Positions 17,801 to 56,721 of a DNA stretch of 64,000 nucleotides are shown here, piece after piece. The position numbers and the translations under genes were made by a program. The notes beneath the pieces were generated by a model. The model made no database searches and was not told the DNA's origin. It saw only the letters and a program-made list of their open reading frames with translations. The stretch is from the IMG/VR virus record IMGVR_UViG_3300045988_174111, positions 32,001 through 96,000 of that record; one strand, 5' to 3'. The stretch's first letter is position 1; each line of letters starts with the position of its first letter. This DNA comes from a virus.

Positions 17801-19282
17801 AGATACCTTAACACGACCTGCATTCAAGAAACGTTCAAAAAGTAGATTATACCTCATCGGGTCTAACTTCGTAATTCCAAGAAGATAGGAAACAAGACAG
17901 CCCCCAGCAGAACCACGGCTGATTCCAGTCATTATCCCATTTCTGTGACACCAATTAATAATATCCCACGTAATTAAGAAATAATCAATTGCATCACCCA
18001 ATTTGATAACCCCTACTTCTCGGTCTATTCGCTCCATAATAACCTCTTCACCCCAATCCTCAATGAGGTCTGGGTGACGGTCAAGCCCATCCGATATAAG
18101 AGACCAAAAGAGGTCTTCATTCGTTTCAAATTTCTTGGCTTCTTCTTTTGTCATTTTATAACGCGGTAAATGTCTTTTTTTAACGTCAATGACAAAAGTA
18201 ATAGATTCGGCAATACTTTCAAGAAATTCCAAACCTTCTGTGAACCTTGAATAGACATCCATAAGGCCTTCATCTGTGTCTGGAAACATCTGTGAAAGCT
18301 CTGTAAATAATTGGTCGTTTGATTTGAAATATTGATTATCACTTTCGTATGCCGTTGTCCCTCCAATACTATGTAGGCGAGGCCTTATACAACTGTATTC
18401 TTCATCCAAATACCAAGCATCAACCGACGGAACAGGTAGCAAATTTCTATCCATGAAGAACTTTTTCAAGTTCTTCAAATACCATTCGTCCCTACTGTTA
18501 TCAACATATTCACATGGGTCAAGCTGATAGATAGCAGCATCCAAATTTAAACTTGATAAAACATCATAATCTAAGGTTTTGGGGTCCAGAAACAAAATCA
18601 AATCATCATTATCTCTCGTAATTTGATTAAAATCTTGAAGGCCAATGTATTTTGGATTGTCACAGTTTATGAACTTATTTATCGTCAAAAGGTCTTTCCA
18701 CCCCTTATCATTTCTTGCATACACTTTTACTGTGAATCTAATATCTCTTGGCTGGTCATATACGGTGCATTCCATCCCAATTATACTTTTCAGGCCGTTC
18801 TTTTGACATTCTGCCTGAAACTTCAAAGAACCAGCTAGCGAATTCTTTTCACAAATCCCTAAAGTGTTAACTCCAAGAAATTTAGCTTTTTTACACCAAT
18901 CAGAATACGTCCCGGAACCAGACATCATCTCATATTGGCCATGAACCCCAAGAAATACTTTAGTTTCAAATTCTTGTTTTGCAGCTCCAATATACTTCAA
19001 TCGTGTCAACTTGACATCATTTTCTTGCCCTTTTGACAACATGTAATACACCCCTCCAAATCGGTAAGCATAGAAGTCACAGTTTGTCTCAACTGTTCCA
19101 TCTTCAGCCCCACGATTGGGGTCAGCAGGAATTCCAACAAAATTGAAACTGTCATCAAACATCGCTCCGTCAAAGGCTTCTTTATACAGCTCAAAAGTCT
19201 TGCCGCCAATTTCAACTATATAGTCGGATAATTGTGTATAATCAAGTAAATTTTTTTCAAGGTATTCTTTAAATCTTTTCAT
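14816..19282 (-). CDS. dnaE: DNA polymerase III alpha-subunit-type replicase (DnaE family), interrupted by an intein
   Basis: 1488 aa. PHP-like region FLGVHGQYEMMSGSG, ISRGSAGGCLVSYLLGIT, catalytic LPDIDCDY, finger motif split as NNTYGVF|...|CYQEQIMQ, C-terminal OB/HhH-like region. Confidence 0.9.
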   Translation of the reverse strand: MKRFKEYLEKNLLDYTQLSDYIVEIGGKTFELYKEAFDGAMFDDSFNFVGIPADPNRGAEDGTVETNCDFYAYRFGGVYYMLSKGQENDVKLTRLKYIGAAKQEFETKVFLGVHGQYEMMSGSGTYSDWCKKAKFLGVNTLGICEKNSLAGSLKFQAECQKNGLKSIIGMECTVYDQPRDIRFTVKVYARNDKGWKDLLTINKFINCDNPKYIGLQDFNQITRDNDDLILFLDPKTLDYDVLSSLNLDAAIYQLDPCEYVDNSRDEWYLKNLKKFFMDRNLLPVPSVDAWYLDEEYSCIRPRLHSIGGTTAYESDNQYFKSNDQLFTELSQMFPDTDEGLMDVYSRFTEGLEFLESIAESITFVIDVKKRHLPRYKMTKEEAKKFETNEDLFWSLISDGLDRHPDLIEDWGEEVIMERIDREVGVIKLGDAIDYFLITWDIINWCHRNGIMTGISRGSAGGCLVSYLLGITKLDPMRYNLLFERFLNAGRVKVSLPDIDCDYPGEDRPRVKKYMEERYGWNQVCSVGTYSALQLRAAIKDMARVYGLDFQSTNEMMKAFDVKDRKPEDLFKIACANSKVKNFVKSHPDLINEVMLIMPAPKAQSIHACAMMVFPDENDMFRWVPIRKSGDEYVTEWEGGEMDAAGFLKEDVLGVKQFDKFQDMVRLVKEHEGVDLDIFSIPLDDKEVYRYFKNGWNEDNFHFGSSGLTGYCKQMKPDNIEDLIAAISLYRPGAMENNFHNEFVVRKEGKKEIEYFVGTESILNNTYGVFCIAENSEVLTLNGIKKIQDIIPGDMVKTEDGSFQKVLLLKNNGVKKTVRVRSNFGRELVCTPDHKILTKRGWVEAQNLVKNDELKCWFEKPVRIDSLTEREKLEHWLIGYFIAEGTSTHSSPYFTVSNLEIANRLRELLLELDSDFEVTIKERSQVKKSGNVGKSIRVTVKAVSGKSNGFFSKNYQENKFNSLLKKYGLYLKNCYEKRLPSNYSLDMIAGVLEGDGCLKNDTLKMCNNSLLEDIYFALQSYQIHSSIFPRLNKLTVSWKDLFYCLPYRMLSKKKISRKSPTNYMWGRVKEVVHDEERVVYDISVENIHSFTVGGIIVHNCYQEQIMQLCRELGGLSLVEADDVRKAMVKKKYEALQQYKERFIPYYRDNYNVTQEYSEKVWDAIDKASTYLFNRSHAAAYAITGYISQWIKVHYPIEYWSVAFKYALDTDYSRYIAEINKTGVCTVRPVDINVSDVDVVINFEEKALYWSITGVKQVAEKAATQIIKERKENGQYWSLNDFITRHKWKGSAVNNRIIRNLILAGAFDKLEGITDISKRIDLLVDFLVGVKAEVKDDDPVLSGADLHANDSWWWALLQKQVSGLAFFDYQQIFERFKSEFPDAYEFANVEDCNDTDSRPNNGYVVVSGYVSDMEIKKTRKGDTMCRLILEANYEFLEVIIFQQEYEQLASLLEGSRSNLIIINGCLSYDNRKDSNILRANFETNIVTLTL
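15989..16975 (-). mobile_element. Class 1 intein (329 aa, residues 770-1098 of DnaE) with a LAGLIDADG homing endonuclease
   Basis: Starts CIAENSEVLTLNG, has block B CTPDHKILT, and ends IIVHN followed by Cys (CYQEQ). LAGLIDADG blocks: WLIGYFIAEGTS and MIAGVLEGDGCL. Boundary codons checked on the nucleotide sequence. Confidence 0.85.
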
Positions 19283-27784: not shown

Positions 27785-29956
27785 TTATACTGCATCAACT
27801 TTAATCATTAAGGTGCTTTCTCTTAATCTATTAATTGCCATAAAAGAAGAGGAAACCGTATCATCATGCCCACTAATACTTTCGAGAGTTCCCTTGTCAC
27901 TTCTAAATGCAATAGAATTAAATTCTCCAAACATTTGGTCTATTTTTTGAGAAGTGTCCGGATGATAAGGGCATTTAATAGCTCCTCTCTCAAATAACGC
28001 TGCAAGTGACGCCCATCCAGTTCTCAAGTCCTTTTTATTTCCCGAAGTAGTAGTGAACGGAGTAATATTTCTAATGCCCATTTGAACGCACATGTCCGCC
28101 AAAATATTTTGAAACCCATTGTTCTCAACGACAATTTCATTTGGCTTAAATGTTTGATTCAGCAAATTTATCTTCTGAATTTGTTCATTATGAGACAGCC
28201 CCTTTTCTCGGAAAATATACAAAAGATAATAATTTCCTTGGATGTCTTTCCCCCAAACCGTGTAACAGGTATAATCGGCACCAACGTTACCAGATACGGC
28301 AAAGTCACAACCAATAACAACTCTTTGAAGCTTAATAGGAAAAGACTCTATATTCTCAACGAGCCTGACATTTTCCATACCGATTGTGCTTCTCTTTAGT
28401 ATCTCCCAAGGGAAAATCGTACTGTCGTCAGATATAGGTACAACCAAATATTCTCGAGAAAATACGAGAGTCCCAAGAGATGCTTTTTCTTCCATAAGTT
28501 TCTTCCATGTAAAACGGTCTGGAGCTAATAGACGCCCGTCCGGGAAAATTGCTGGGTATTCAAAAACTTTGAATTTGGGGTCTTTTTTAAGTTCCGCGTA
28601 TAAGTCCTCTTGCTGATATGGGGTTCCATCTACAATATTGTATCCATACGGCTCAACGATAGGGGTGATTGCTCCTTTAAACAGGTCTCTAAGTTTTTCT
28701 CTTTGTTCCAAGGAATAAATACTACTTTCGTCCGGCAAGTCATCACTCACTGCCGCCCCAACATGAAGCCCTCGAATAAACCCGTCCTTTCCGCGCAAAT
28801 GAAGCTTCGTTCCATTTTCGCATTCTATACTAGTTGCGGCCAAAGAAGCCTTTCCAGTAGGATTCAACTTTGCTGCTAAAGCCTCGTTTACTCGAATTTC
28901 CTCAACAACTTTGTCAATGTGCTGTTTACCCAGCTTCTCCGTGTTGGTGATAATACAGGTTTCCTGACGATTCTTATTATCGGGAATGTCAGGTCTCATA
29001 AACGTTGGTCGTCTATAACTGTACAACCTCCACAATGGAAATGCCATGCAAAACTCATAAGAGTTGTGAACAACGGTTCCGTCTTCCAACTGGAATATAT
29101 GGTCTCCGTCGCACATAAAACCATAATAGGATTCTTCCCCTATGGGTTCAACACGTATATTCCCTCTTTCGAAGACAGGCTTATCGTAGGAAAAAACCCT
29201 ATACCCCTGGAATCTTCTTTGTTTCTTCACAGGATACTTCAAGAATTGCCCCATCTCAATTTCAACATATTTTTTCTTCTTTGTATCCCACAGGCATAAA
29301 ATGTGCGCTCGATTTACAGCATAAGGCATTCCATTTTCCTGTTCGACTCTGAACATCTGTGAACGCCCAATATGACGTGTCAAAACTTTTCTCGGGGTAA
29401 AATCAACGCCCATCACCTCCATTCCTGGATAAATGTCCTCAACATTTTTCACCGAAAAATCTGACATTAAAATTCTTGTCCCCCTCGCAAAACATTTTCC
29501 GTGGGAACGGGCAGCAAGATAAGCACTATTCGGATAGAGCTGTACCATGTTTCCCCACTCAAGATTTCTCCACCCCTGACGGAAGTTCGGAAGCATTGTC
29601 GTCTTGAAATAATTATAGGACTGAATTTTTAAAGTTTCATCCATAGACTCTTCTAATTGGTCTATATAATCAAGACGTTCTGTTTCTAAAGTTGAATTTA
29701 ACGTCAGTACATTATTTGTTTGGATAAAAATTTCTGATAAAAGGGAATCAATATCGCCTGAATATCCGTTAACTAGCTGATTTATTGCAACTGGCGGCAA
29801 AGACTCTATCACATTAAATGCGGTAGAAAAAACTGTATCAAGCTGCTTATATGACAATTTTGAATCTTCATTAAAATGTATCATATCACACCAACTGAAA
29901 TCCTTCTCTGAATCTTGATTCTTTTTTCGTTGACGCCACAGGGGTAGAAACTCCAA
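27785..29956 (-). CDS. terL: Terminase large subunit, interrupted by a mini-intein in the Walker A motif
   Basis: Walker A split as ARSHGK|...|SYEF. Also AAVSDDLPDE, IVDGTPYQ, and nuclease motifs VIGCDFAVSG...DYTCYTVWG, VENNGFQ, GHDDTVSS. The ATG at 29884 (Met25) would avoid a 71-nt overlap and may be the true start. Confidence 0.85.
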   Translation of the reverse strand: MEFLPLWRQRKKNQDSEKDFSWCDMIHFNEDSKLSYKQLDTVFSTAFNVIESLPPVAINQLVNGYSGDIDSLLSEIFIQTNNVLTLNSTLETERLDYIDQLEESMDETLKIQSYNYFKTTMLPNFRQGWRNLEWGNMVQLYPNSAYLAARSHGKCFARGTRILMSDFSVKNVEDIYPGMEVMGVDFTPRKVLTRHIGRSQMFRVEQENGMPYAVNRAHILCLWDTKKKKYVEIEMGQFLKYPVKKQRRFQGYRVFSYDKPVFERGNIRVEPIGEESYYGFMCDGDHIFQLEDGTVVHNSYEFCMAFPLWRLYSYRRPTFMRPDIPDNKNRQETCIITNTEKLGKQHIDKVVEEIRVNEALAAKLNPTGKASLAATSIECENGTKLHLRGKDGFIRGLHVGAAVSDDLPDESSIYSLEQREKLRDLFKGAITPIVEPYGYNIVDGTPYQQEDLYAELKKDPKFKVFEYPAIFPDGRLLAPDRFTWKKLMEEKASLGTLVFSREYLVVPISDDSTIFPWEILKRSTIGMENVRLVENIESFPIKLQRVVIGCDFAVSGNVGADYTCYTVWGKDIQGNYYLLYIFREKGLSHNEQIQKINLLNQTFKPNEIVVENNGFQNILADMCVQMGIRNITPFTTTSGNKKDLRTGWASLAALFERGAIKCPYHPDTSQKIDQMFGEFNSIAFRSDKGTLESISGHDDTVSSSFMAINRLRESTLMIKVDAV
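29063..29494 (-). mobile_element. Mini-intein (144 aa, TerL residues 155-298), no endonuclease domain
   Basis: Starts CFARGTRILMSD, has block B-like NRAHILC, and ends GTVVHN followed by Ser. Excision restores RSHGKSYEF. Boundary codons checked on the nucleotide sequence. Confidence 0.8.
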
Positions 29957-34456: not shown

Positions 34457-36619
34457 TTAATCGCTTATCTCCTCAAAAATAGCTTGAATATATAAATCAT
34501 GGTCACCAACCCAATACTGTGTAGGATTTCGAGAATCCTCTGTCAAATCTGTAACAATATTCCATTTTACAAACGAATATCCTGGATTTGGAGTTGCAAT
34601 CAAGGTAATTTCCGTTCTTGGTAAACAGCTTCCTTCGACCCTTGCTTCACCCCAGCCCTGTTGTACAATTTCAATTTCTACGTGTAAAGGAAGATTCATA
34701 ATTACGTCAACCGTAACGTCTTTATCCAAAGAAACTGACCCCTGTGAAGTAATCCCTTTTGCAGAAATTTCCCAACTAATATTTGAATTCTTTGGCAACT
34801 CAAATCTTACATACCCATTCTTATCAGTTTGAGAAGTGAACCCATTACTTAGTGTTACTTGCGCATTTTCAATAGGCTGGCCATCTAATTCTCTTTTCAC
34901 ATTAAAAGTAAGGAAATAAGAATTTCTTACTACCCAATCGAGCCAAGTATAAGATGCCACATTTTTATAGGAAACCAAATATCTTTTAATGAATTCTTCA
35001 ATATCTGATTTAGTTCTTGAAGAATTTATTTGGGAATACATAGCAATCACATTTTTTTGTCCTAAATACCCCTGAGAAAATGGTAATTTCAATGGTTTTA
35101 AACAAATCCCAGCAATTAAAATATCGCAAGAAACTGAATCCCTATTTTGAACAATATAAGGGGCCATATATTTTACACCCCCCATGAATCTCAATGGCCT
35201 TCCATTCTCGAAATTCAAATACAAATTTTCATCCTTTTCTTCAAGAATATTGTATATAATTCCCCTCAATCGGTAATACACTCCTGGAATTTTACATGGG
35301 CTTTGATAGCGTTCGCCTTCAAAAAAGCTATTTGTTTCGCGCCAATCGGTGATTCTAACCTGATTAATTAACTGTAAATTTGAATCATAACAATGAACAC
35401 CAAATTCTATATTCTGATTTCCAAGATTTAATGCTCGCACCCATACAGTAATTTCGTAATCAAGGCCTGGATAAACTTCCAATACTTTTGTTTTGTCTAT
35501 TTCTGTAGAAATTCCAACTCTTCCATAACCTTTTGGCTGAAAAACATACATTCCATCAACAAACCTGCGCTCAACTGTTCCAATAATCGGGTAGTCAGAA
35601 AGCTTCCCAACACCAGCTGCATTAATTTCAGAATAATCTGTAGGAAGTTCATCTTCTGTGTATATCTTCCAGGGGTATTCCGTTTGAATTTCATTCAATT
35701 CTGGTGCCCCAGTCTTTTTCATTACGATTTCATCGTTCGCAAACTTAATCAAATCCGTTGAAATATTTCCGGAATAATCAGTACCAAAATCCCACCCTTT
35801 CGAAACTTCATTTACAGTTTCAGTGCCATACCAAGTCGGAGAACTCCAGCCTAAACACCAGCCCACACTTTCTGGGGGTAAAACCGCAAAAATAAATTCA
35901 TTTGGTTTTTCATAGCCAACTAATCTCCTAAGTTCGCCTTCTATTTCGCTACCTGTTGCAGCAATTTTATCAGTCCCTCTGTTGTAAAATTCTTGAATCC
36001 AATTCAAAAATAGATATCTTCGCTGGTCAAGTGTTTCAATGTTTTCGTAGACGATTCCCCAATTTTCAATAAATTCTTTCATCAACAAATCGCTGTTTTC
36101 TAACTGCCGATAATTTCTGGAATAAATAACAATAAACGCAAAATAATGCGTTATCGCTAAAAAGAAAGAATTATAGTCATCCTGATTATTACGACTCACA
36201 TACAAAGGCACTATTCCAGGCTCAAAAAGCTTCTCTAAGACATTTATTGCCCATGCTAAAACCTGTGGGTCGTTACTGTCAAAAAATGTCTTAAAAATCG
36301 TTTTATCGTAAATAATTGCTGAAGCCTGTTTTGGGGAATTCCTTTGAAAAACTTTAGGTGCTGAAAATGGCTTTGTCACATAGTCTAAAACTAAATCATC
36401 ACTATCAGTAAGCCTTCCCAATTTTTCCAAACAATTATTTGAAAAAACTTCCCAATTAGAATATGTTCTTCCGCCATCTTTTGAATACCTAAAAAGAGAA
36501 TATTCATTTTCCCTTGCTGCCCTTAAAATAGCAACTAAGCCAGCCAAAGGTATTATCTGAGTATAAATTGTAAACCCACAGCCAATATGAGGAAATTCTT
36601 TTAATTTTATTGAAGCCAT
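34457..36619 (-). CDS. tail fibre / receptor-binding structural protein (720 aa)
   Basis: Large ORF following the baseplate genes. C-terminal Ig-like segments and a repeat with PGYSFVKWNI. Confidence 0.4.
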   Translation of the reverse strand: MASIKLKEFPHIGCGFTIYTQIIPLAGLVAILRAARENEYSLFRYSKDGGRTYSNWEVFSNNCLEKLGRLTDSDDLVLDYVTKPFSAPKVFQRNSPKQASAIIYDKTIFKTFFDSNDPQVLAWAINVLEKLFEPGIVPLYVSRNNQDDYNSFFLAITHYFAFIVIYSRNYRQLENSDLLMKEFIENWGIVYENIETLDQRRYLFLNWIQEFYNRGTDKIAATGSEIEGELRRLVGYEKPNEFIFAVLPPESVGWCLGWSSPTWYGTETVNEVSKGWDFGTDYSGNISTDLIKFANDEIVMKKTGAPELNEIQTEYPWKIYTEDELPTDYSEINAAGVGKLSDYPIIGTVERRFVDGMYVFQPKGYGRVGISTEIDKTKVLEVYPGLDYEITVWVRALNLGNQNIEFGVHCYDSNLQLINQVRITDWRETNSFFEGERYQSPCKIPGVYYRLRGIIYNILEEKDENLYLNFENGRPLRFMGGVKYMAPYIVQNRDSVSCDILIAGICLKPLKLPFSQGYLGQKNVIAMYSQINSSRTKSDIEEFIKRYLVSYKNVASYTWLDWVVRNSYFLTFNVKRELDGQPIENAQVTLSNGFTSQTDKNGYVRFELPKNSNISWEISAKGITSQGSVSLDKDVTVDVIMNLPLHVEIEIVQQGWGEARVEGSCLPRTEITLIATPNPGYSFVKWNIVTDLTEDSRNPTQYWVGDHDLYIQAIFEEISD

Positions 36620-47263: not shown

Positions 47264-48922
47264 TTAATTTCCTAAAACAAAACCAGTGAAGAAAATCTTT
47301 GTAACTTCACTATTCACAACAACTTCATAAGTGACGTTATAATAGTCCTCAATTCTAGTAGCCACTACATTCTGGAAACGCTGTATCAAGTTATCCTGAT
47401 TTTCCGTAGCAACTCTTGACTGGAGGAAATTAATTGTCCAAGTTTCCAAAGACCCTTTAGACAGGGTATTGATATTCACACCATTTTCATCCCCCAATAA
47501 ATCAATTTCTGCATTGACGACACATTCTTTATTCAGTTGTGCAATTATTCGCATAAATTGAATGCTGAATGACAGACCTTTTGCATTGAATAACGTTTTG
47601 TTATCCTGCAAAGTAGTAATCCCCTGAAGAATGACGAAACGACCTAAGAATGGATTCGGGTAAACAACAACCAATCCTGCATTAACGGCCTTTTCGCGTT
47701 CTTTTTCATCTGGAACGTGTTGAAGTTTATCTCCTCCAATTGTCTTATTAGTGACAGGGACATAAGGCGGCTTTCCGCTTACTCGGCCAATCACCTGACA
47801 TAGATTATAGAATACGCCCCACCAACGAACTTTAGAAGCAACTGCATCACTCGCTGTTCCAATTCCGCCATGAACACAAACTACATAAGCATTATTAAAC
47901 TTCTTAGCCATTGCTAAAGATTCAGCAAATTTTGTTTTACTGTCATGAGCACCGACATAAACAAACTTATCAAACTTTGCTTGAGTATTTCTGTGGGTAA
48001 TTACTTTCAAATTCTTTGCGCTGCTTCCAGAATCGCCAACTTGGTCTGTGAAGACAATGTTATAATCAACATCTGAAATTTGATTCAACAAGTCGTCCAA
48101 ATCAGTTTCTTTATATTGTTCCGTAGCACCAGTTGCAACCTGATACTCGGCACTTCCTTCAATGTCCGCAGAATCTACAGTTCCATCCCCTTGTATTTCG
48201 CTTGATTCATCTAAGATAAATCGTGCGCCAAAATTTTCATCGGTCTGGCACCAAGCAATAACTTCTGCAAGTGAAGTACATTCCGGAGTCTGACAAATCA
48301 ATTGTGGCTCGGCCTGTTCAACTGTCAATTCATCATACGAAAGTTCTACCCCAGTAACGGGGTCTTTATAAGAACCTGTATATGTTCCAAGCCAAAACTT
48401 CATTACGAATGCTTCGGGGTCTTCGGTTCCGGCCTCTACTGTATAAGCATAGCCAGTCTTTAACAATTTTCCCTCGAGTTCACCATTTGCATTCAAACCT
48501 TCATCAATTGTCTTAACAATTAAAGAACCTCCGTTAGAGCCTCCACCAGTTGGTGAAAACGTCATTGTTGCAGGAGTAGTTGTACACGCTCTCGCATAAA
48601 GCAATTTACTGATTCCAACTGAATCAGAATTATACGGGTCAGGAGTAAATAATGCCTCAGCACATTTCCAAAACATCCCACCTTTTACAAAATCACGAAA
48701 ATCTGACAGTGTCTCAAATTCATACACTGCATCTTTTCCCTGTTTGTTAGTTCCATTAACACCAGAACCTCCTCCAAATTTAGCCCCGTAGACTCCTGTA
48801 TCGATTAACAATACAGTTCCATAATCTAAATTTCGAGAAGCACTACTCGCCCCAGAAGTAATCGTAGAATAAACCCCAGGAAGAGTTCTCATTTTCCCAT
48901 TAAAATAGACACTTGTCGCCAT
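47264..48922 (-). CDS. contractile tail sheath protein
   Basis: 552 aa. N-terminal ...TLPGVYSTI... is typical of sheath proteins. Followed by tube, chaperones and tape measure. Confidence 0.75.
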   Translation of the reverse strand: MATSVYFNGKMRTLPGVYSTITSGASSASRNLDYGTVLLIDTGVYGAKFGGGSGVNGTNKQGKDAVYEFETLSDFRDFVKGGMFWKCAEALFTPDPYNSDSVGISKLLYARACTTTPATMTFSPTGGGSNGGSLIVKTIDEGLNANGELEGKLLKTGYAYTVEAGTEDPEAFVMKFWLGTYTGSYKDPVTGVELSYDELTVEQAEPQLICQTPECTSLAEVIAWCQTDENFGARFILDESSEIQGDGTVDSADIEGSAEYQVATGATEQYKETDLDDLLNQISDVDYNIVFTDQVGDSGSSAKNLKVITHRNTQAKFDKFVYVGAHDSKTKFAESLAMAKKFNNAYVVCVHGGIGTASDAVASKVRWWGVFYNLCQVIGRVSGKPPYVPVTNKTIGGDKLQHVPDEKEREKAVNAGLVVVYPNPFLGRFVILQGITTLQDNKTLFNAKGLSFSIQFMRIIAQLNKECVVNAEIDLLGDENGVNINTLSKGSLETWTINFLQSRVATENQDNLIQRFQNVVATRIEDYYNVTYEVVVNSEVTKIFFTGFVLGN

Positions 48923-49005: not shown

Positions 49006-52000
49006 TCAAGAAATTTTCCAAGAAGTATTTGTCGAAATTGAAAATTTGCTTGAGCCTCCAGTAGCCCCAAAAGATAAACTCGTAGGAGAAACGTCAAGAT
49101 ACAAAATTTTCGCAACCAAATTTCTCGCTCCATTCACCGTAAATGAATAAGACAGATTTGAGCTTACCTTTCTACCATTTTCATACCAGCCATCAAAGAC
49201 ATCCTGGCTATTCTTTTTCGTACATGTTACAGTTGCCTGAGCCCCATAATTATAGGAACCACCTCCAGACACTGAGCCTCGACTAGAAGAAGAGCTTTCC
49301 ATACCAATCGAAACTGTATATGATTTAACGCTTCGAGTCCCTCTTGCTTCAAGTGTCAATGCTCCAGTAATATTAGTTGGGGCATAAGTTACTCCGGAAG
49401 AAACCTTCGAAGAACCATTATACCAACCGTCAAATCCGTATGAATACTGAGCATTACTTGCCATAACCGTAGCAGTAGAACCTTGAGCATTAGAACCATA
49501 ATTAACAGATTCACTTGCTCGGCTTACGGAAGAAATATAATTCCCTTTGTTATAAGTAACTGTATAGCTTCTCAAAGTACGAGTTCCTTTAGCCAAGTAA
49601 GTAGCATTTGCAGTTACCCCCGTAGGCGCAAAAGTCGCCCCAGAAGAAACCTTCGAAGAGCCATTATACCAACCGTCAACCCCATACGAATATTGGGCAG
49701 TAGTTGAATTAACCGTCATTGTTGAACCAACAGCATTTGTGCCATGCGCAACACGTTCTGACGAACGGCTCACACTTGTCACATAATCTCCAACTTGATA
49801 AGTTATTGTATAATATTTTTTCGTAAATCTTGCATAAACTATCACTGACGAAGTCACGTTCGAAATTGTATATGACAAGGAACTACTCAACAAAGAACCT
49901 CCACTTTCCCCAGCAGAATACCACCCATCAAAATTATAACCAGCAGCCACTGAAGCAATAACAGTTGAATTGGCTCCATGATTAACTGTGCCTCCACCAG
50001 AAACAGTTCCACCGCTTGTCCCAAGTGTATAGTCCCCTGTTCCATCTGTATTGCGATAATATGCTTGTGGAGTTACAGTATAAGAATTTAGAGTTGCCTT
50101 AGCTGTAAGAGACATATTTGACCTAACATCTGTGGGAGCATACGTCAAAGACGACGACTTTTTCGTTTCCCCTTCGTACCATCCATCAAATGTGTACCCC
50201 TCTATCACTGTCGCAGTACACCCAACTGCATTTCCACCCCAATTCACAATTTCAGATTCTCTACTAATTGTGTCAATTCCAGTTCCCTTCAAATAAGTTA
50301 CTGTATAAGAATTTATTGAATATTCCGCAGTATATGTAGCGTCTCCAGTAACAGTAACTTCTCTTGACTTGGTCGTCACACCATCAGACCACTTCACAAA
50401 TGCTTTTCCTTCTATTTCCAAAGCCGAAATCGTAACCTTTGTTCCATAATCATAAGTTCCGGAACCTGTTCCGTCAACAACTGTCAGCGTATATTTTCTC
50501 AATGAAGAAACTCCTCTTGCTTCGAAACTTCTATCTGAAGAAATATTCTCAATACTTAATATCAAATCTTCTCCAACCTTTTCACCATTTTCGTACCAGC
50601 CATCAAAAGAATAAGCCAATTGAACCGTATTCTCAAGAAGAGTCGCTTCACATGTTGCAGTTCCACCATAATTAACAGATTCACTTTCTTTAGTAAGCGA
50701 AGCAATATTCGCATTCTTAGAATAAGAAATCGAATAAACATTGATAGTCGCAGAAGCAACCAATGTGCAATCTGATTGAATTGCTGATAATGTTGCAATT
50801 CCATCTAAAACATTCAAAGTTCCAGTTCCTGAAGTTTTTTCCCAAGTTGGAGTATTGTACCCAGTAGAAGCAACAGCCTTTTCAGAAGTTACTGTGCCAT
50901 TATATGCAACTCTTTCAGTTGTTTTTGTTAAATCAACAACTCCAACTCCTTTAGAATAGGTGACAGAAAACCAATTTTTCTGAAATCTTGCATAAACTGT
51001 CATTGAAGATGTGATATTCTCCACCTCATAAGTTGAAGAATCACTAATTCGAGTATCCTCAGAATTATACCAGCCTTGAAAAGTATAACCAACCTTTGCA
51101 GAAGCGGTTAAAGTCGCTTTAGAGCCATAATCATACTCTCCCGAACCAGTCACTGTTCCTCCATTCGTTCCATCCGTAAACGAACCAATAGAATCCGCAT
51201 CACGGTACTGGGGTAAACATTCAATTGAAAAGGTTTTTATTACCCCCTTTGCAGTAAATTCTAAATTTTCCCTCACATTCAAAGGAGCATATTTTAACTC
51301 CTGACTGACACGAACCTCTTCTTCATTGTACCATCCATCAAAATTATACCCTTCTTCTAATTCTGCAACTGAACCCTCAGCATTGGAACCATATTCAACA
51401 GCTTCAATTTCAGGAGTAACTGAAATAATTCCTTTCCCTTTCTTGTAAGTAACTGTATTGACAGACATTCCAAAAGAAGCAGCATAAGTTTCATCTTTCG
51501 TCACATTCGTAACGGTAAGCTCTAAAGTTTCAACCCCATTACTCCATCCACTAAATAAATGACCCGTATCAGGTGTGGCAGTAGAAGAAGCTGACCCACC
51601 ATATTCCACACGGGCTGAAGTCGGGGACACTGTTCCTCCTGGGCCAGCAATAAATTTCAACGTGAACCACATACGCTGAAACCTAGCAGTCAAATTCCTT
51701 GAAGAATCCGCATTAAATGTATATGACAAATCTTCAGAAATTTTCAATTCTCCATCATACCAACCATCAAACGAATAACCCTCGCTTGGAACTGCTTCAA
51801 TCGTAACACTTTCTCCATGATTAAAAGTTCCTCCACCAAAAACGGTTCCACCGTTCTCACCATCAAGAAAATCACCTGATTCAGCAATTCTATATTTCGA
51901 CTTCAGATTAATATCGTAACTCTTAATTTGAAAAATTGCCTGAATAGTTCTATTTTTAGTAATTTCCCAACTAGAATAAGGGTTTTCAAAAAACTCGTTA

Positions 52001-52893
52001 CCTTCTTCGTCAATCCATTTTATAAAATTATATCCAACGGCAGGATTCGCGGTTGATTTAATCAGAGAACCATAATCATAATTTCCTGAACCAGCTACTG
52101 TTCCAGAACCCTCTGGGGAAATTACAAAAGATAAAGAATATCTATTTGTTTCTCTTGACCCAATCGCTGTAAATGTCCTGTCTGAAACAATATTTTCAAT
52201 ATTTAACAATAAATCAGAAGAAACCTTTTCGCCACCTTCGTACCAGCCTAAAAATGAATAAGAAAATTGGGCTGTATCTGAGGGTATTGTTGCAACTGCT
52301 GTTGCAGAACCACCCCACTTAACTGTCTCAGAAATCTTGTCAATTGATTTAATATGCTCCCCCTTTTGATAAGAAATTGTATATGTAGAAGATTCCTGAA
52401 TAATTGTCACTTCTTCTGATATCAATGATGAAAAGCCCGTAACGGCAATCTTACCAATCCTCTGGCCAACAGTATTTTTAGGAATAAGAAATTCCGCATA
52501 AAAGTTAAATTCTCCTTTAGCTCCAGGGTCTCCAGAAATATCACTTCCATTCTCAGTACTCAGCCCATTTGCAATGTAATTTTCTGGAATTTGAAAAGAA
52601 ATCCCATTCCCTTTCCCAAAAGAAAAAGTAATATTTTTAGAATTGCTTTTCCCAGAAATAACAACTTTTTGCTGATTCTGACTAATAGTAAATAAAGTTT
52701 TATCTAAAATTATATATTCAGGGGAAGCCTCTTGCTTCACCTGATATGATTTAGCTGATTCAACCTTATCAGTAATTGCAATCACTGCCGTCTCCCTCAC
52801 GAGACGGCCTTTATGTTCTTCTCCTGTATTTATTAAAGTTGAATCCCCTATTCCACTAGAGGGGGAAACTTCAAGCCAAGATTCTTTTCCCAT
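49006..52893 (-). CDS. giant repeat adhesin: 14 Listeria-Bacteroides-type repeats flanked by BACON-like half-domains
   Basis: 1295 aa. 14 repeats, each ending in G(Y/H)xFxGW(Y/S), e.g. GYSFDGWYDGE and GYTFQGWYNSE. N-terminus SWLEVSPSSGIGDSTL. C-terminus LDVSPTSLSFGATGGSSKFSISTNTSWKIS. Confidence 0.8.
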   Translation of the reverse strand: MGKESWLEVSPSSGIGDSTLINTGEEHKGRLVRETAVIAITDKVESAKSYQVKQEASPEYIILDKTLFTISQNQQKVVISGKSNSKNITFSFGKGNGISFQIPENYIANGLSTENGSDISGDPGAKGEFNFYAEFLIPKNTVGQRIGKIAVTGFSSLISEEVTIIQESSTYTISYQKGEHIKSIDKISETVKWGGSATAVATIPSDTAQFSYSFLGWYEGGEKVSSDLLLNIENIVSDRTFTAIGSRETNRYSLSFVISPEGSGTVAGSGNYDYGSLIKSTANPAVGYNFIKWIDEEGNEFFENPYSSWEITKNRTIQAIFQIKSYDINLKSKYRIAESGDFLDGENGGTVFGGGTFNHGESVTIEAVPSEGYSFDGWYDGELKISEDLSYTFNADSSRNLTARFQRMWFTLKFIAGPGGTVSPTSARVEYGGSASSTATPDTGHLFSGWSNGVETLELTVTNVTKDETYAASFGMSVNTVTYKKGKGIISVTPEIEAVEYGSNAEGSVAELEEGYNFDGWYNEEEVRVSQELKYAPLNVRENLEFTAKGVIKTFSIECLPQYRDADSIGSFTDGTNGGTVTGSGEYDYGSKATLTASAKVGYTFQGWYNSEDTRISDSSTYEVENITSSMTVYARFQKNWFSVTYSKGVGVVDLTKTTERVAYNGTVTSEKAVASTGYNTPTWEKTSGTGTLNVLDGIATLSAIQSDCTLVASATINVYSISYSKNANIASLTKESESVNYGGTATCEATLLENTVQLAYSFDGWYENGEKVGEDLILSIENISSDRSFEARGVSSLRKYTLTVVDGTGSGTYDYGTKVTISALEIEGKAFVKWSDGVTTKSREVTVTGDATYTAEYSINSYTVTYLKGTGIDTISRESEIVNWGGNAVGCTATVIEGYTFDGWYEGETKKSSSLTYAPTDVRSNMSLTAKATLNSYTVTPQAYYRNTDGTGDYTLGTSGGTVSGGGTVNHGANSTVIASVAAGYNFDGWYSAGESGGSLLSSSLSYTISNVTSSVIVYARFTKKYYTITYQVGDYVTSVSRSSERVAHGTNAVGSTMTVNSTTAQYSYGVDGWYNGSSKVSSGATFAPTGVTANATYLAKGTRTLRSYTVTYNKGNYISSVSRASESVNYGSNAQGSTATVMASNAQYSYGFDGWYNGSSKVSSGVTYAPTNITGALTLEARGTRSVKSYTVSIGMESSSSSRGSVSGGGSYNYGAQATVTCTKKNSQDVFDGWYENGRKVSSNLSYSFTVNGARNLVAKILYLDVSPTSLSFGATGGSSKFSISTNTSWKIS
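49082..49153. repeat. 72-nt repeat, copy 1 (3' end of the 1295-aa gene)
   Basis: About 80 percent identical to 52981-53052, with a 26-nt exact core (49098-49123 = 52997-53022). Encodes NLVAKILYLDVSPTSL. Confidence 0.85.
49102..52386 (-). repeat. Array of 14 tandem protein-coding repeats (about 75-85 aa each) inside the adhesin gene; boundaries approximate
   Basis: The periodic GWY/KW motif was counted 14 times. Adjacent units near the 3' end are close duplicates (QYSYGVDGWYNGSSKVSSG and QYSYGFDGWYNGSSKVSSG). Confidence 0.7.
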
Positions 52894-52905
52894 ACATTCT
52901 TTTTG

Positions 52906-53436
52906 TTATTTTATATTCCAAGAAACATTCGAGTCAACTCTAAACTCCGAATTTCCTCCAACAGCTTCAAATTCCAATGACGTAGGAGAAACATCGAGAT
53001 ACAAAATTTTCGCAACCAAATTCACTTCATTTTCAACGGTAAATGAATAAGTAGCTTCTGAGGAAACCTTTTCACCACCTTTATACCAACCATCAAAAAC
53101 ATCACCCTCTTTTAAAAGATTGCATTTTAATACCACTTTTTCCCCCACAGCAACTTCTTTTGAAGCATTCGTCCCAGCTTCTCCATTATCAATTTCAACC
53201 GATGCCCTTGAAGTTACGTCAGAATTCAATGAAATTGAAATTAAAAAAGACCCTTTTTGAATGTCCTTCAATAAAATAAAATCATTATCACCATAAGAAG
53301 ACAAAGGTTCTTTGTCAAATTTCCCAGCAGAAATGAGTTCCTTTTTCCGAACAAAATTCTTTTCAGAAACCCCAATGTCCTCAGGGGTAATTCCCACAAT
53401 ATCTGCAGCCTGTTTAGAAGTTGAATAATTTTCCAT
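52906..53436 (-). CDS. small adhesin-module protein: N-terminal domain plus one Listeria-Bacteroides repeat plus first half of a BACON-like domain
   Basis: GDVFDGWYKGGEKV, then LDVSPTSLEFEAVGGNSEFRVDSNVSWNIK-stop. I prefer the ATG at 53436 over the TTG at 53469 in the track. Same frame as the 1295-aa ORF, separated by one TAA and four codons. Confidence 0.7.
   Translation of the reverse strand: MENYSTSKQAADIVGITPEDIGVSEKNFVRKKELISAGKFDKEPLSSYGDNDFILLKDIQKGSFLISISLNSDVTSRASVEIDNGEAGTNASKEVAVGEKVVLKCNLLKEGDVFDGWYKGGEKVSSEATYSFTVENEVNLVAKILYLDVSPTSLEFEAVGGNSEFRVDSNVSWNIK
52981..53052. repeat. 72-nt repeat, copy 2 (3' end of the 176-aa gene)
   Basis: See 49082-49153. Confidence 0.85.
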
Positions 53437-53438
53437 AA

Positions 53439-53663
53439 TTAAGTTGTTTTTCCAGCACCTTGCTGGCAATCAACAAATTTTTTAAAAACAATATTCCCAG
53501 AAACTGAATTGATTTTATCAATCAAACCTTGTCCAGTTAACTTGTCAAGAATATTCTTTTCTGTCAAACTATCTAAGATACTAGAAGGGTTCTCCTGCTG
53601 TTTCTGAACAGCAGATAAAAGTTCATCAACTTTTGCCCCAGTAAATTTCGATTTATATGCCAT
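53439..53663 (-). CDS. hypothetical protein (74 aa)
   Basis: ORF in the array, 2 nt upstream of the next ATG. Confidence 0.5.
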   Translation of the reverse strand: MAYKSKFTGAKVDELLSAVQKQQENPSSILDSLTEKNILDKLTGQGLIDKINSVSGNIVFKKFVDCQQGAGKTT

Positions 53664-56061: not shown

Positions 56062-56721
56062 TTAACTTACTTCTATTTCATCTACTCCGTCTAATAAATT
56101 ATATTTCTTGATTATAGCATTTATTTGTTCTTCGGTTAGAGCTTCTTTGAAGCCGAGGAATTTGTAGAGTGCCATATCGCTATAATATCCTGAATTGGTA
56201 GCATTAGCCCCAATAGTCGGTCTACTTTCTTGTACTTCATCATTAGTTAATACGTAAATAAGTTGTTTTTTATTAATTAATTCATTAACTTTAATACTAC
56301 GATTTAACATTCCATTAATAAAAGTATCATATTTATTTCTCTCGCAATATGCTACAAAATTACCATTGTTAAAAAAAATGGCATACTCCATATATTTCTC
56401 TAAAGTATTTTTTCTTTGGTCGTATAATATCATGCCACCTAATTTTTTATACAATGGATTACAAAGCATAAACATAGTCTTAAACCCACTATCAAAAGCA
56501 TCAAGATTTACATAATCATCTACGCCATCAAAGACTAATGCACCATCCTTATATCCACTACCTTGTTCATTCCAAGCAAAGTTATGAGCAACAGCATCAT
56601 TTCCATTACCACTATAATCCTTTATAGTATCTCTTGTTTCATCATCATTACTTCCTTGACTAAAATCATAATAACAATCAGGAGTAGGAATTTTCAGATG
56701 GAAGAAGATATTCGGGGTCAA
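56062..56721 (-). CDS. LamG/concanavalin-like domain protein (intact paralog)
   Basis: DYSGNGNDAVAHNFAWNEQGSGYKDGALVFDGVDDYVNL is typical of Laminin_G_3-type domains. Start is uncertain: TTG at 56721, with no in-frame ATG before residue 83. Confidence 0.55.
   Translation of the reverse strand: MTPNIFFHLKIPTPDCYYDFSQGSNDDETRDTIKDYSGNGNDAVAHNFAWNEQGSGYKDGALVFDGVDDYVNLDAFDSGFKTMFMLCNPLYKKLGGMILYDQRKNTLEKYMEYAIFFNNGNFVAYCERNKYDTFINGMLNRSIKVNELINKKQLIYVLTNDEVQESRPTIGANATNSGYYSDMALYKFLGFKEALTEEQINAIIKKYNLLDGVDEIEVS

What the first reader, a model, noticed from the sequence alone, without database searches (positions are those of the whole stretch)
52768..53004. A BACON-like domain is split across two genes by a single in-frame TAA
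Seen: ORF 52906-53436 ends ...LDVSPTSLEFEAVGGNSEFRVDSNVSWNIK-TAA. Four codons later (QKEC), in the same reading frame, the 1295-aa ORF starts MGKESWLEVSPSSGIGDSTLINTGEEHKGRLVRETAVIAIT. Established (from memory of the BACON family): the domain reads roughly l.vsp..l.f.a.gg....v.sn..W.v.....Wl.vsp.sG.G.....v......R.a.i.v. The upstream gene would therefore end with the first half of the fold, and the downstream gene would begin with the second half. The 1295-aa protein itself ends with another first-half copy (...SISTNTSWKIS-TGA), and there the continuation beyond the stop is not BACON-like. Three explanations are possible. (a) A nonsense mutation or sequencing error split one gene of about 1475 codons. 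(b) Low-level stop-codon readthrough or suppression makes a long fusion that attaches the adhesin through the N-terminal domain of the small protein. (c) The half-domains complement in trans, joining the small protein to the giant one, or joining giant subunits head to tail.
Basis: partly seen in the sequence, partly recalled or inferred. Interest (0 to 1): 0.65.

Follow-up and report, generated by a model that had tools for sequence, protein, structure and literature searches.

The report
Split BACON domain joining phage proteins
Two neighbouring genes of a gut Bacteroidota phage each encode half of one Ig-like (BACON) domain, and because the same split recurs at gene borders in many unrelated phages, it is probably a plug-and-socket joint between separately made fibre or adhesin proteins, not a broken gene.

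Summary
The 176-aa ORF (52906-53436, minus strand) ends ...SNVSWNIK-TAA. Four in-frame codons later the 1295-aa ORF starts MGKESWLEVSPSSG. Neither protein alone matches BACON. Joined, they match Pfam BACON_2 above its cut-off and are colinear with solved BACON domains.

It is not a nonsense mutation, an assembly error or readthrough:
- Orthologues of the small protein (35-60% identity) all stop at the same point.
- Orthologues of the giant protein (355-919 aa) all start with the second half and end with a first half.
- No fused protein was found.
- The closest relative has two stops and a frame shift at the junction.
- In 68 loci of a related 200-aa family, 66/66 upstream genes end with a first half and 60/64 downstream genes start with a second half. 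Spacings and frames vary.

Best reading (confidence about 0.55): a naturally split BACON domain is completed in trans, tethering the giant Flg_new-repeat adhesin to the small adaptor protein. The adhesin's own terminal half stays free, or pairs with another copy.

Main rival: the giant protein closes on itself as a circular permutant.

No physical evidence exists. I found no published description. The phenomenon is widespread.

The parts
53439..53663 (-). 74-aa gene directly upstream; its stop lies 2 nt before the small protein's ATG. Conserved with the same position in the closest relative (L002). Function unknown.
52906..53436 (-). Small protein, 176 aa: N-terminal helical domain (about aa 1-62), one Flg_new (InlB B-repeat-like) domain (about aa 63-145), and a terminal first half of BACON (C1). 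Proposed adaptor/anchor that donates C1.
   Evidence: Flg_new 84-143; orthologues of 173-181 aa, plus one of 269 aa, all end at C1; AF2: pLDDT 93-97 for the first two domains
52909..53001 (-). C1: first half of the BACON-like sandwich (about aa 146-176, LDVSPTSLEFEAVGGNSEFRVDSNVSWNIK), at the extreme C-terminus of the small protein.
   Evidence: HMM E 2e-20; pLDDT only 74-84 and few regular strands when modelled alone
52906..52908 (-). TAA stop of the small gene, in frame with the giant gene.
   Evidence: identical in a second assembly
52894..52905 (-). 12-nt A-rich spacer (CAAAAAGAATGT, 'QKEC'). It resembles the 25-nt spacer of the relative L002, where the two genes are out of frame.
49006..52893 (-). 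Giant protein, 1295 aa: N2 half-BACON, an Ig-like 'mid' domain, about 14 Flg_new/Flg_new_2 repeats, and a terminal C1 half-BACON. Putative adhesin.
   Evidence: Flg_new_2 4.5e-64, Flg_new 2.2e-40; 13 GW motifs spaced 69-87 aa
52720..52893 (-). N2: second half of the BACON-like sandwich (aa 1-58, MGKESWLEVSPSSGIGDSTLINTGEEHKGRLVRETAVIAIT...VKQ), at the extreme N-terminus of the giant protein.
   Evidence: (HMM E 4.8e-28)
52384..52719 (-). 'Mid' Ig-like domain (about aa 59-170), homologous to the middle domain of the 200-aa N2-mid-C1 family.
   Evidence: (38-54% identity)
49009..49110 (-). Second C1 copy (aa 1262-1295, LDVSPTSLSFGATGGSSKFSISTNTSWKIS) at the extreme C-terminus of the giant protein. 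By my count it is 64% identical to the small protein's C1. A 42-nt stretch at the Flg_new/C1 border is nearly identical in DNA. No N2 partner gene follows.
47264..48922 (-). Next gene downstream, which I read as the tail sheath from its position and conserved synteny (no family hit supports the name). It starts MATSVYFNGK and has no N2. It places the cassette at the head/tail module border of a probably contractile-tailed phage.

Best explanation
The TAA is a genuine gene border that cuts a BACON-type Ig-like sandwich in the loop between its two conserved tryptophans. The small protein ends with the first roughly three strands (C1). The giant Flg_new-repeat protein begins with the remaining four strands (N2).

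Proposed mechanism: the two genes are translated one after the other from the same message, so the small protein's C1 is available just as the giant protein's N2 emerges. The two pieces fold together into one complete sandwich. This ties the giant adhesin non-covalently to the small protein, whose own N-terminal domain would anchor the pair on the virion.

The giant protein's own C-terminal C1 is made more than 1200 residues later. It stays free, or it plugs into the N2 of another copy (head-to-tail).

The same joint is used in many other Bacteroidota phages, usually in three-gene cassettes: an anchor ending in C1, a 200-aa connector (N2-mid-C1), and a tip or cap starting with N2.

Shown: the split, its conservation, its independence of reading frame, and the fact that neither half is a domain on its own. 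Inferred: physical complementation, which half pairs with which, and the virion location.
For: - **Domain identity.** Only the joined halves match BACON_2 above the cut-off (33.4 bits vs 25). The join is colinear with the solved BACON domains 3zmr, 8va4 and 9s8x.
- **Small-protein orthologues.** They are 35-60% identical and 173-181 aa long (one is 269 aa), and all end at C1.
- **Giant-protein orthologues.** Proteins of 355, 745 and 919 aa all start with N2 and end with C1.
- **No fused version.** None was found.
- **Closest relative (L002).** It has the same gene order, but the small gene ends TAG-TAA, a 25-nt spacer follows, the frame changes, and the N2 frame opens one codon before its ATG.
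- **Survey of 68 loci of the 200-aa family.** 66/66 upstream ORFs end W-x-[IVL]-x(1-3)-stop and 60/64 downstream ORFs start M..W..G. Spacings run from -1 to 71 nt, all three relative frames occur, and 28 central-to-downstream junctions are ATGA overlaps.
- **Half-only proteins exist.** Most downstream proteins are only 77-124 aa, so an N2 half-domain of about 60 residues makes up most of them. Upstream proteins carry only C1. Such halves need a partner in trans.
- **C1 is not self-sufficient.** In the AF2 model of the small protein alone, the first two domains have pLDDT 93-97. C1 has 74-84 and almost no regular strands.
- **Size of the family.** More than 4883 hits, and the top 120 are all about 200 aa and full length. 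It also occurs in Crassvirales cr111_1, next to a lysis-regulator gene.
- **No recoding.** There are no tRNA genes in 84 kb of the genome and no sign of recoding in the window.
Against: - No physical or structural evidence for the complex exists.
- AF2 models the 200-aa relative as a confident monomer with both termini well placed (pLDDT 93.4, pTM 0.78). Intramolecular closure of N2 with the same chain's C1 is therefore sterically possible.
- The window has two C1 copies and only one N2. No further N2 lies in 84 of the roughly 104 kb, so one C1 is left without a partner in any model.
- A divergent subfamily (L069-L086, csAssE-Sib) has no upstream C1 gene, and in csAssE-Sib the gene stands alone. 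Self-complementation must therefore be possible in this family.
- A distance-correlation test of which halves co-vary did not discriminate between pairings.
Confidence: 0.55

Rival explanations
1. Intramolecular closure (circular permutant). The giant protein's own N2 and C1 fold together, so the repeat array forms a closed loop. In the relatives, the 200-aa protein would be a compact two-domain monomer. The small protein's C1 would then be unpaired, would act only transiently as a chaperone-like placeholder for N2 until the giant protein's own C1 is made, or in three-gene cassettes would pair with the downstream N2 cap.
For: - The AF2 monomer of P0004 is confident at both termini (pLDDT 93.4, pTM 0.78).
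- P0004's own C1 plus its own N2 gives the best full-length BACON_2 match (42.1 bits, profile 2-93 of 94).
- The stand-alone member in csAssE-Sib has no partner genes.
- This model could account for two C1 copies and one N2, if the small protein's C1 is a transient placeholder.
Against: - AF2 tends to satisfy inter-chain contacts within one chain, so the monomer model does not discriminate.
- The small protein's C1 would have no lasting partner, yet it is conserved to the last residue in eight clusters down to 35% identity.
- In the three-gene cassettes surveyed, every N2-starting gene with an upstream ORF on the contig is preceded by a C1-ending gene (66/66), and many junctions are translationally coupled. 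This model gives no reason for that.
- N2 of the giant protein would have to wait unfolded for more than 1200 residues of translation.
- Closing a rod of about 14 repeats into a loop seems awkward.
Confidence: 0.2
2. Head-to-tail homo-oligomerisation. The giant protein's C1 plugs into the N2 of another giant protein, giving chains or rings. The small protein acts as the primer or terminator at the N2 end, much like donor-strand exchange in pili.
For: - BIG C1 plus BIG N2 scores 36.7 bits for BACON_2, slightly better than small C1 plus BIG N2.
- The two C1 copies are 64% identical by my count.
- Stand-alone family members imply self-complementation.
- This model gives the otherwise orphan, conserved terminal C1 a role.
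Against: - No evidence for polymers.
- It would compete with the small protein's C1.
- In most other phages the chain is ended by a dedicated N2-only cap, and no such cap was found in the 84 kb examined here.
Confidence: 0.1
3. The halves do not pair at all. N2 (which equals the 61-residue Pfam BACON model) is a self-sufficient small domain, and C1 is merely a short beta-hairpin tail of the preceding Flg_new domain. The adjacency would be a relic of an old gene fission.
For: - Pfam PF13004 covers only the N2 part.
- C1 in the AF2 model of the small protein is not fully disordered (pLDDT 74-84).
- The numbers of halves are unbalanced in several genomes.
Against: - In the solved BACON domains that align, the C1-equivalent stretch directly precedes N2 in the same chain.
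- A relic would not stay conserved to the exact residue across 66 junctions and in families at 35-60% identity.
- Downstream proteins of 77-124 aa, made mostly of an N2 half, make little sense without a C1 to complete.
Confidence: 0.1
4. One long gene was broken by a nonsense mutation or sequencing error, or it is expressed as a fusion by low-level TAA read-through or suppression.
For: In this window the two ORFs are in frame, only four codons apart. In-frame junctions are somewhat over-represented among upstream-to-central borders (31 of 66). That fits an origin by fission of a once continuous gene.
Against: - No fused orthologue was found in either protein library.
- The relative L002 has two stops and a frame change.
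- All three frames and overlaps occur elsewhere.
- The junction is identical in a second assembly.
- No tRNA genes, and no other interrupted genes in the window.
- TAA is generally regarded as the most efficient stop codon in bacteria (from memory).
Confidence: 0.03

Closest known systems
Contiguous BACON / viral BACON_2 domains (Pfam PF13004, PF19190; solved in BoGH5A 3ZMR, 8VA4, 9S8X; tandem repeats in the crAssphage BACON protein, PMC6949934)
   Same: Same sequence family and motif order (L.V.P..l.f...GG...f.v.SN..W.v.s...W..vsP.sG.G...v.....N.g.R.a.i.v). The joined halves pass the BACON_2 cut-off and align colinearly with solved domains.
   Different: In all described cases the domain lies within one polypeptide. 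Here it is divided between the C-terminus of one gene product and the N-terminus of the next. Neither product alone matches the family.
Donor-strand complementation/exchange in chaperone-usher pili, and strand-exchange polymerisation of Bacteroidia type V pili (FimA/Mfa1) (from memory)
   Same: An incomplete Ig-like fold in one subunit would be completed by strands from another, giving ordered non-covalent chains. There are donor-only, donor-plus-acceptor and acceptor-only subunits, comparable to initiator, shaft and cap.
   Different: - Here three strands (about 33 residues), not one, are donated, and they come from the C-terminus.
- No chaperone, usher or activating protease is evident.
- Assembly order would be set by gene order and translational coupling.
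- This is a phage virion context.
- Complementation itself is not demonstrated.
Circular permutation and 3D domain swapping of beta-sandwich proteins
   Same: The N2-mid-C1 proteins have the two halves of one domain at opposite chain ends, as a permutant or a swap-prone protein would. AF2 closes the 200-aa relative as a monomer.
   Different: Partner proteins carrying only one half (the small protein here, and the upstream anchors and downstream caps elsewhere) cannot be explained by permutation alone.
Multi-gene phage fibres assembled in gene order (T4 gp34-gp35-gp36-gp37; anchor-branch depolymerase systems of Klebsiella phages) (from memory)
   Same: Consecutive genes encode consecutive segments of a fibre. 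A small adaptor attaches a large receptor-binding or adhesin protein.
   Different: As I recall, those joints are made by complete, usually trimeric docking domains, not by completing a single split Ig-like fold.
Ig-like/BACON modular adhesins of gut phages (PMC13370021, 2026; T4 Hoc-type mucus adherence)
   Same: Bacteroidota gut phages, including an unassigned myovirus-like group, carry BACON/Ig-like proteins next to structural genes. These proteins mediate adherence. The giant Flg_new protein here is of that kind.
   Different: A term search of that paper found no complementation and nothing pointing to a domain split between genes. Domain screens on single proteins would miss half-domains.
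Engineered split-domain tags (SpyTag/SpyCatcher from a split CnaB2 domain; split GFP) (from memory)
   Same: Two polypeptides reconstitute one beta-rich domain and are thereby joined.
   Different: Those are man-made, and SpyCatcher forms a covalent isopeptide bond. This would be a natural, non-covalent and widespread counterpart.

Membership tests
BACON / BACON_2 domain (PF13004 / PF19190) | Profile match above the curated cut-off within one polypeptide | tested here: not met
   Small protein alone and giant protein alone: no BACON or BACON_2 hit at E<=1.
BACON / BACON_2 domain (PF13004 / PF19190) | Profile match above the cut-off for the two halves taken together, in the order C1 then N2 | tested here: met
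   Small C1 + giant N2: BACON_2 33.4 bits (cut-off 25), profile 2-72 of 94. Giant C1 + giant N2: 36.7 bits. The reversed order gives only separate partial hits. With the native stop and 4-codon spacer: 24.1 bits.
BACON / BACON_2 domain (PF13004 / PF19190) | Colinearity with experimentally solved BACON domains | tested here: met
   P0004 C1+N2 aligns contiguously with 3zmr_A residues 16-91 (E 0.0011) and 8va4_A residues 40-120. The window join aligns across the junction with the same chains, but weakly (E 0.13-1.5).
BACON / BACON_2 domain (PF13004 / PF19190) | A complete beta-sandwich is actually formed by the two chains | not testable with these tools
C1 modelled alone is the least confident part of the small protein (pLDDT 74-84).
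Donor-strand complementation / strand-exchange assembly (pilus-like) | An incomplete Ig-like fold in one subunit is completed by strands of another subunit | not testable with these tools
   Inferred only, from half-only proteins always encoded next to their complement.
Donor-strand complementation / strand-exchange assembly (pilus-like) | Dedicated chaperone, usher or activating protease | not tested
   No such family appeared in the Pfam scans of neighbouring genes. No systematic search was made.
Circularly permuted single-chain domain | N- and C-terminal segments of the same chain pack into one domain | tested here: inconclusive
   The AF2 monomer of the 200-aa relative is confident throughout (pLDDT 93.4, pTM 0.78). 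No coordinates were available, and AF2 cannot tell intra-chain from inter-chain pairing.
Programmed stop-codon read-through / recoding | In-frame arrangement conserved among relatives | tested here: not met
   L002: TAG-TAA, 25-nt spacer, frame change. In 66 upstream junctions the relative frames are 31/13/22. In 64 downstream junctions they are 10/8/46, including 28 overlaps.
Programmed stop-codon read-through / recoding | Suppressor tRNA, or other genes with in-frame stops | tested here: not met
   No tRNA in the window or in 20 kb of flanks. The window is densely filled with long standard-code ORFs.
Pseudogene (gene broken by a nonsense mutation) | Intact, fused orthologues exist | tested here: not met
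   No protein covers both sides of the junction (best query coverage 48%). The phmmer search with the small protein found orthologues that all end at C1.
Split intein / protein trans-splicing | Intein (Hint) halves flanking the junction | tested here: not met
   No Hint or intein family hits in either protein, although other genes of this phage do contain inteins.

The most novel reading that the evidence does not exclude
Gut Bacteroidota phages, including Crassvirales, use a naturally split BACON domain as a standard non-covalent connector. Separately encoded anchors, spacers, giant adhesins and tips or caps would be strung together in gene order by co-translational completion of half-domains. 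In this phage the giant adhesin, with a half at each end, could even polymerise head to tail from the small primer protein. This would be a phage counterpart of pilus donor-strand exchange, and a natural analogue of engineered split-domain tags.
Probability: 0.45. Interest if true: 0.8.

Novelty: new variant of a known kind. Interest (0 to 1): 0.68.

Why it matters
If the halves do complement in trans, four things follow.

1. It would explain how large, highly variable adhesins and receptor-binding tips are attached to virions of abundant but largely uncultured gut phages. In the one crassvirus solved by cryo-EM the tail fibres are unresolved.
2. It would show a simple route to modular exchange of fibre parts. 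Any protein starting with N2 could be plugged onto any protein ending with C1.
3. It would matter for annotation. Domain screens of single proteins miss these half-domains, and gene callers or curators may wrongly merge or 'repair' such gene pairs.
4. It would offer a natural split Ig-like pair as a protein-assembly tool.

It also gives a directly testable case of a protein domain divided between two genes and conserved as such.

Tried and rejected
- **blastn of the junction region against phage genomes:** no match.
- **Search of IMG/VR with the small protein:** no confirmed relative.
- **PHROGs and NCBIfam:** no family for the small protein, the giant protein's N-terminus, the 200-aa family or the upstream proteins.
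- **Synteny with the nearest GenBank phage:** MT835500 (51% identity in the gene downstream of the cassette) has an unrelated gene at this position, so it gave no junction to compare.
- **MSA for the 355-aa orthologue:** MAFFT misaligned C1 with Flg_new, so I did not use it.
- **Foldseek of both models against PDB and BFVD:** only generic Ig-like tandem hits, uncharacterised phage orthologues and the InlB B-repeat. Nothing for the small protein's N-terminal domain.
- **Distance-correlation (mirror-tree) test on 56 non-redundant cassettes:** partial correlations were 0.51 (upstream C1 vs central N2), 0.51 (central C1 vs central N2), 0.43 (central C1 vs downstream N2) and 0.39 (upstream C1 vs downstream N2). 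This is confounded by linkage, so I treat it as inconclusive.
- **Search for a further N2-starting gene in this phage:** none in the window or in 20 kb of flanks. About 20 kb of the genome was not seen.
- **Literature searches for a split or complemented BACON/Ig-like domain in phage fibres:** nothing found.
- **tblastn for cultured phages carrying the cassette:** only uncultured genomes.
Full report
**1. Observation**

All genes in this part of the window lie on the minus strand. The ORF 52906-53436 (176 aa from its ATG) ends ...ILYLDVSPTSLEFEAVGGNSEFRVDSNVSWNIK, followed by TAA. Four in-frame codons (QKEC) follow. Then ATG at 52893 opens a 1295-aa ORF that starts MGKESWLEVSPSSGIGDSTLINTGEEHKGRLVRETAVIAIT and ends ...LDVSPTSLSFGATGGSSKFSISTNTSWKIS-TGA. 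The sequence after that TGA is not BACON-like. The description in the finding is exact.

**2. Is it really a BACON domain cut in two?**

Below, C1 means the first half of the domain and N2 the second half.

- Pfam finds one Flg_new repeat in the small protein and Flg_new/Flg_new_2 repeats in the giant one (E 2e-40 and 4.5e-64). It finds no BACON in either alone.
- The read-through concatenate hits BACON_2 (PF19190) across the stop at 24.1 bits. The direct join of the halves scores 33.4 bits (E 4.2e-8; cut-off 25).
- The giant protein's own C-terminal half joined to its N-terminal half scores 36.7 bits. The reversed order gives only separate partial hits.
- Against PDB sequences, the joined halves of a relative align contiguously with the BACON domains of BoGH5A (3zmr, E 0.0011), a GH16 (8va4) and a sulfatase (9s8x). 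The window's own join gives the same alignment more weakly.
- The break falls in the loop between the two conserved tryptophans (W-x-I-S | x-x-S-W).

C1 is therefore about 33 residues and N2 about 58 residues of one fold.

**3. The split is conserved**

*Giant-protein relatives.* A search with the region across the junction returned only proteins that begin at N2 (M-A/G-K-x-S-W...) and end at C1 (...S-N-T-S-W-x-I-S-stop): P0001 and P0002 (355 aa, 54% identical) and a family of 200-202 aa. None covered both sides of the junction.

*Small-protein relatives.* A full phmmer scan of 1.8 billion representatives with the small protein found eight orthologous clusters. Seven are 173-181 aa and one is 269 aa, at 35-60% identity. 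Every one ends at C1. The scan also found giant-protein orthologues of 745 and 919 aa with N2 at the start and C1 at the end.

*Closest relative.* Contig L002 has the same gene order: a 74-aa gene, a 178-aa gene, a 355-aa gene, then the same 552-aa gene that follows the cassette in the window. There the small gene ends TAG-TAA, a 25-nt spacer follows, the downstream gene is in another frame, and that frame opens only one codon before its ATG.

This rules out a recent nonsense mutation, an assembly error and conserved read-through. The junction is also identical over 770 nt in a second assembly. No tRNA gene occurs in the window or in 20 kb of flanking genome.

**4. The same split is widespread**

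The 200-aa N2-mid-C1 family has more than 4883 hits. The top 120 are all about 200 aa and full length. I extracted 80 IMG/VR loci and found 68 loci with such a gene.

| Junction | Half-domain signature present | Spacing | Relative frames (0/1/2) |
|---|---|---|---|
| Upstream ORF (62-293 aa) to central gene | 66 of 66 end W-x-[IVL]-x(1-3)-stop | 6 to 71 nt | 31 / 13 / 22 |
| Central gene to downstream ORF (77-471 aa) | 60 of 64 start M..W..G (an N2) | -1 to 53 nt, with 28 ATGA overlaps | 10 / 8 / 46 |

- Most downstream proteins are only 77-124 aa, so an N2 half makes up most of them. Others carry Laminin_G_3 or glycine-rich domains.
- The cassette also occurs in the crassvirus cr111_1, next to a lysis-regulator gene. 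There the central gene is annotated 'lipocalin-like, BACON'.
- In L002 a conserved 293-aa protein has acquired a C1-like end. It is followed by a 217-aa N2...C1 protein and an 86-aa protein with a weak N2-like match.

**5. Structure predictions**

- The small protein, modelled with nine sequences, is confident for its N-terminal helical domain and its Flg_new domain (pLDDT 93-97).
- Its last 26 residues drop to 74-84 and have almost no regular strands, so C1 is not a domain of its own.
- The 200-aa relative P0004, modelled as a monomer, is confident throughout (pLDDT 93.4, pTM 0.78), including both termini.
- Closure of N2 with the same chain's C1 is therefore sterically possible. I had no coordinates, and AF2 is known to satisfy inter-chain contacts within one chain.

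**6. Interpretation**

The comparative data establish a conserved, frame-independent split of one domain at gene borders. Proteins carrying only one half exist: the small protein here, and the upstream anchors and downstream caps elsewhere. They are always encoded next to the complementary half, which argues that halves are completed in trans.

For this window I favour pairing of the small protein's C1 with the giant protein's N2, for three reasons:
- It is the only N2 available.
- The two are made consecutively from adjacent genes.
- The giant protein's own C1 appears more than 1200 residues later.

The small protein would then be the adaptor, with its N-terminal domain free to bind the virion. 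The giant Flg_new array would be the displayed adhesin. The cassette sits directly upstream of the gene I read as the tail sheath. It is absent at the corresponding position in the nearest GenBank relative. The giant protein's length varies widely: 355, 745, 919 and 1295 aa among orthologues, and 1083 aa in a second assembly of this phage. This is typical of an accessory, fast-evolving adhesin.

**7. Caveats and rivals**

- There are two C1 copies and one N2 here, so one C1 is left over. It may stay free, or it may bind another copy of the giant protein head to tail.
- Intramolecular closure is the main rival (see point 5).
- A divergent subfamily (L069-L086, csAssE-Sib) has no upstream C1 gene, and in csAssE-Sib the gene stands alone. 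Self-complementation must therefore occur somewhere in the family.
- A distance-correlation test could not tell which halves co-evolve.
- It also remains possible, though less likely, that the halves do not pair at all.

**8. Known or new**

- Contiguous BACON domains, phage BACON repeats and BACON/Ig-like phage adhesins are known (PMC6949934, PMC13370021).
- Fold completion between subunits is known from pili (from memory).
- I found no description of a BACON or other Ig-like domain split between adjacent phage genes.
- The fibres of the one crassvirus solved by cryo-EM are unresolved.

I class this as a new variant of a known kind of mechanism. It is widespread, testable, and still unproven at the protein level.

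Noticed in passing
window 14816-19282(-), 27785-29956(-), 124-2853(-); L087 13676-16180 and 16602-19922; L088 5118-7127: Several essential genes of this roughly 104-kb phage carry intein or homing-endonuclease domains. DNA polymerase III alpha has Intein_splicing + LAGLIDADG_3. The terminase large subunit has Hom_end_hint. An SNF2 helicase has LAGLIDADG_3. Just outside the window, a UvrD helicase has Hom_end, and a protein with a faint RNR-II domain hit (probably a ribonucleotide reductase) and a 669-aa protein both have Intein_splicing (weak for the latter). This is an unusually high number of such elements for one phage.
   Followed up: no
window 49006-52893(-) versus L088 20436-end: The giant adhesin is 1295 aa in the window and in the Logan contig ERR1110366_206. 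It is called as 1083 aa in the ENA assembly (scaffold_45). Either the repeat number truly varies or the Flg_new array collapsed in assembly. Orthologues range from 355 to 919 aa.
   Followed up: partly
window 49070-49111 and 52970-53011 (approximate): A 42-nt stretch (AATTTGGTTGCGAAAATTTTGTATCTYGAYGTTTCTCCTACG) at the Flg_new/C1 border is nearly identical (40 of 42) in the small and giant genes. The surrounding DNA is only about 60% identical. These direct repeats flank the whole giant gene and could mediate its deletion, duplication or exchange by recombination.
   Followed up: partly
window 34457-36619(-): A 720-aa protein in the tail region ends with a CarboxypepD_reg domain and a Flg_new_2 repeat (aa 649-718 of 720). 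This is a second protein with the same repeat type, but without a half-BACON end.
   Followed up: no
L006 187-3342: This contig, which carries the P0006 member of the 200-aa family, has called genes interrupted by stops under the standard code (202-aa gene broken at codon 157; 747-aa gene broken). This suggests a phage with a reassigned stop codon.
   Followed up: no
L069-L086 (e.g. L071 3989-4648 and 4745-5062); L091 2417-3073 (csAssE-Sib): A divergent subfamily of 218-219 aa has Phe in place of the N-terminal Trp. A 14-17-residue basic tail follows C1 (...SWTWAQAAARTVLRMMGR). No C1-ending gene lies upstream. In L071 an N2-starting 105-aa gene lies 96 nt downstream. In csAssE-Sib the gene stands alone between opposite-strand genes and is annotated 'glycosyl hydrolase family 5', presumably only because of its BACON similarity.
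   Followed up: partly
L002 3310-4191: A 293-aa protein ends with two C1-like repeats (...SNTDWVLS and ...AKTAWRLE-stop). Judging by N-terminal sequence similarity, it is the counterpart of a shorter conserved protein in MT835500 (L001 10263-10961, 232 aa), and perhaps of the window's 219-aa ORF at 56062-56721. A core protein seems to have acquired a half-BACON socket in some phages.
   Followed up: partly
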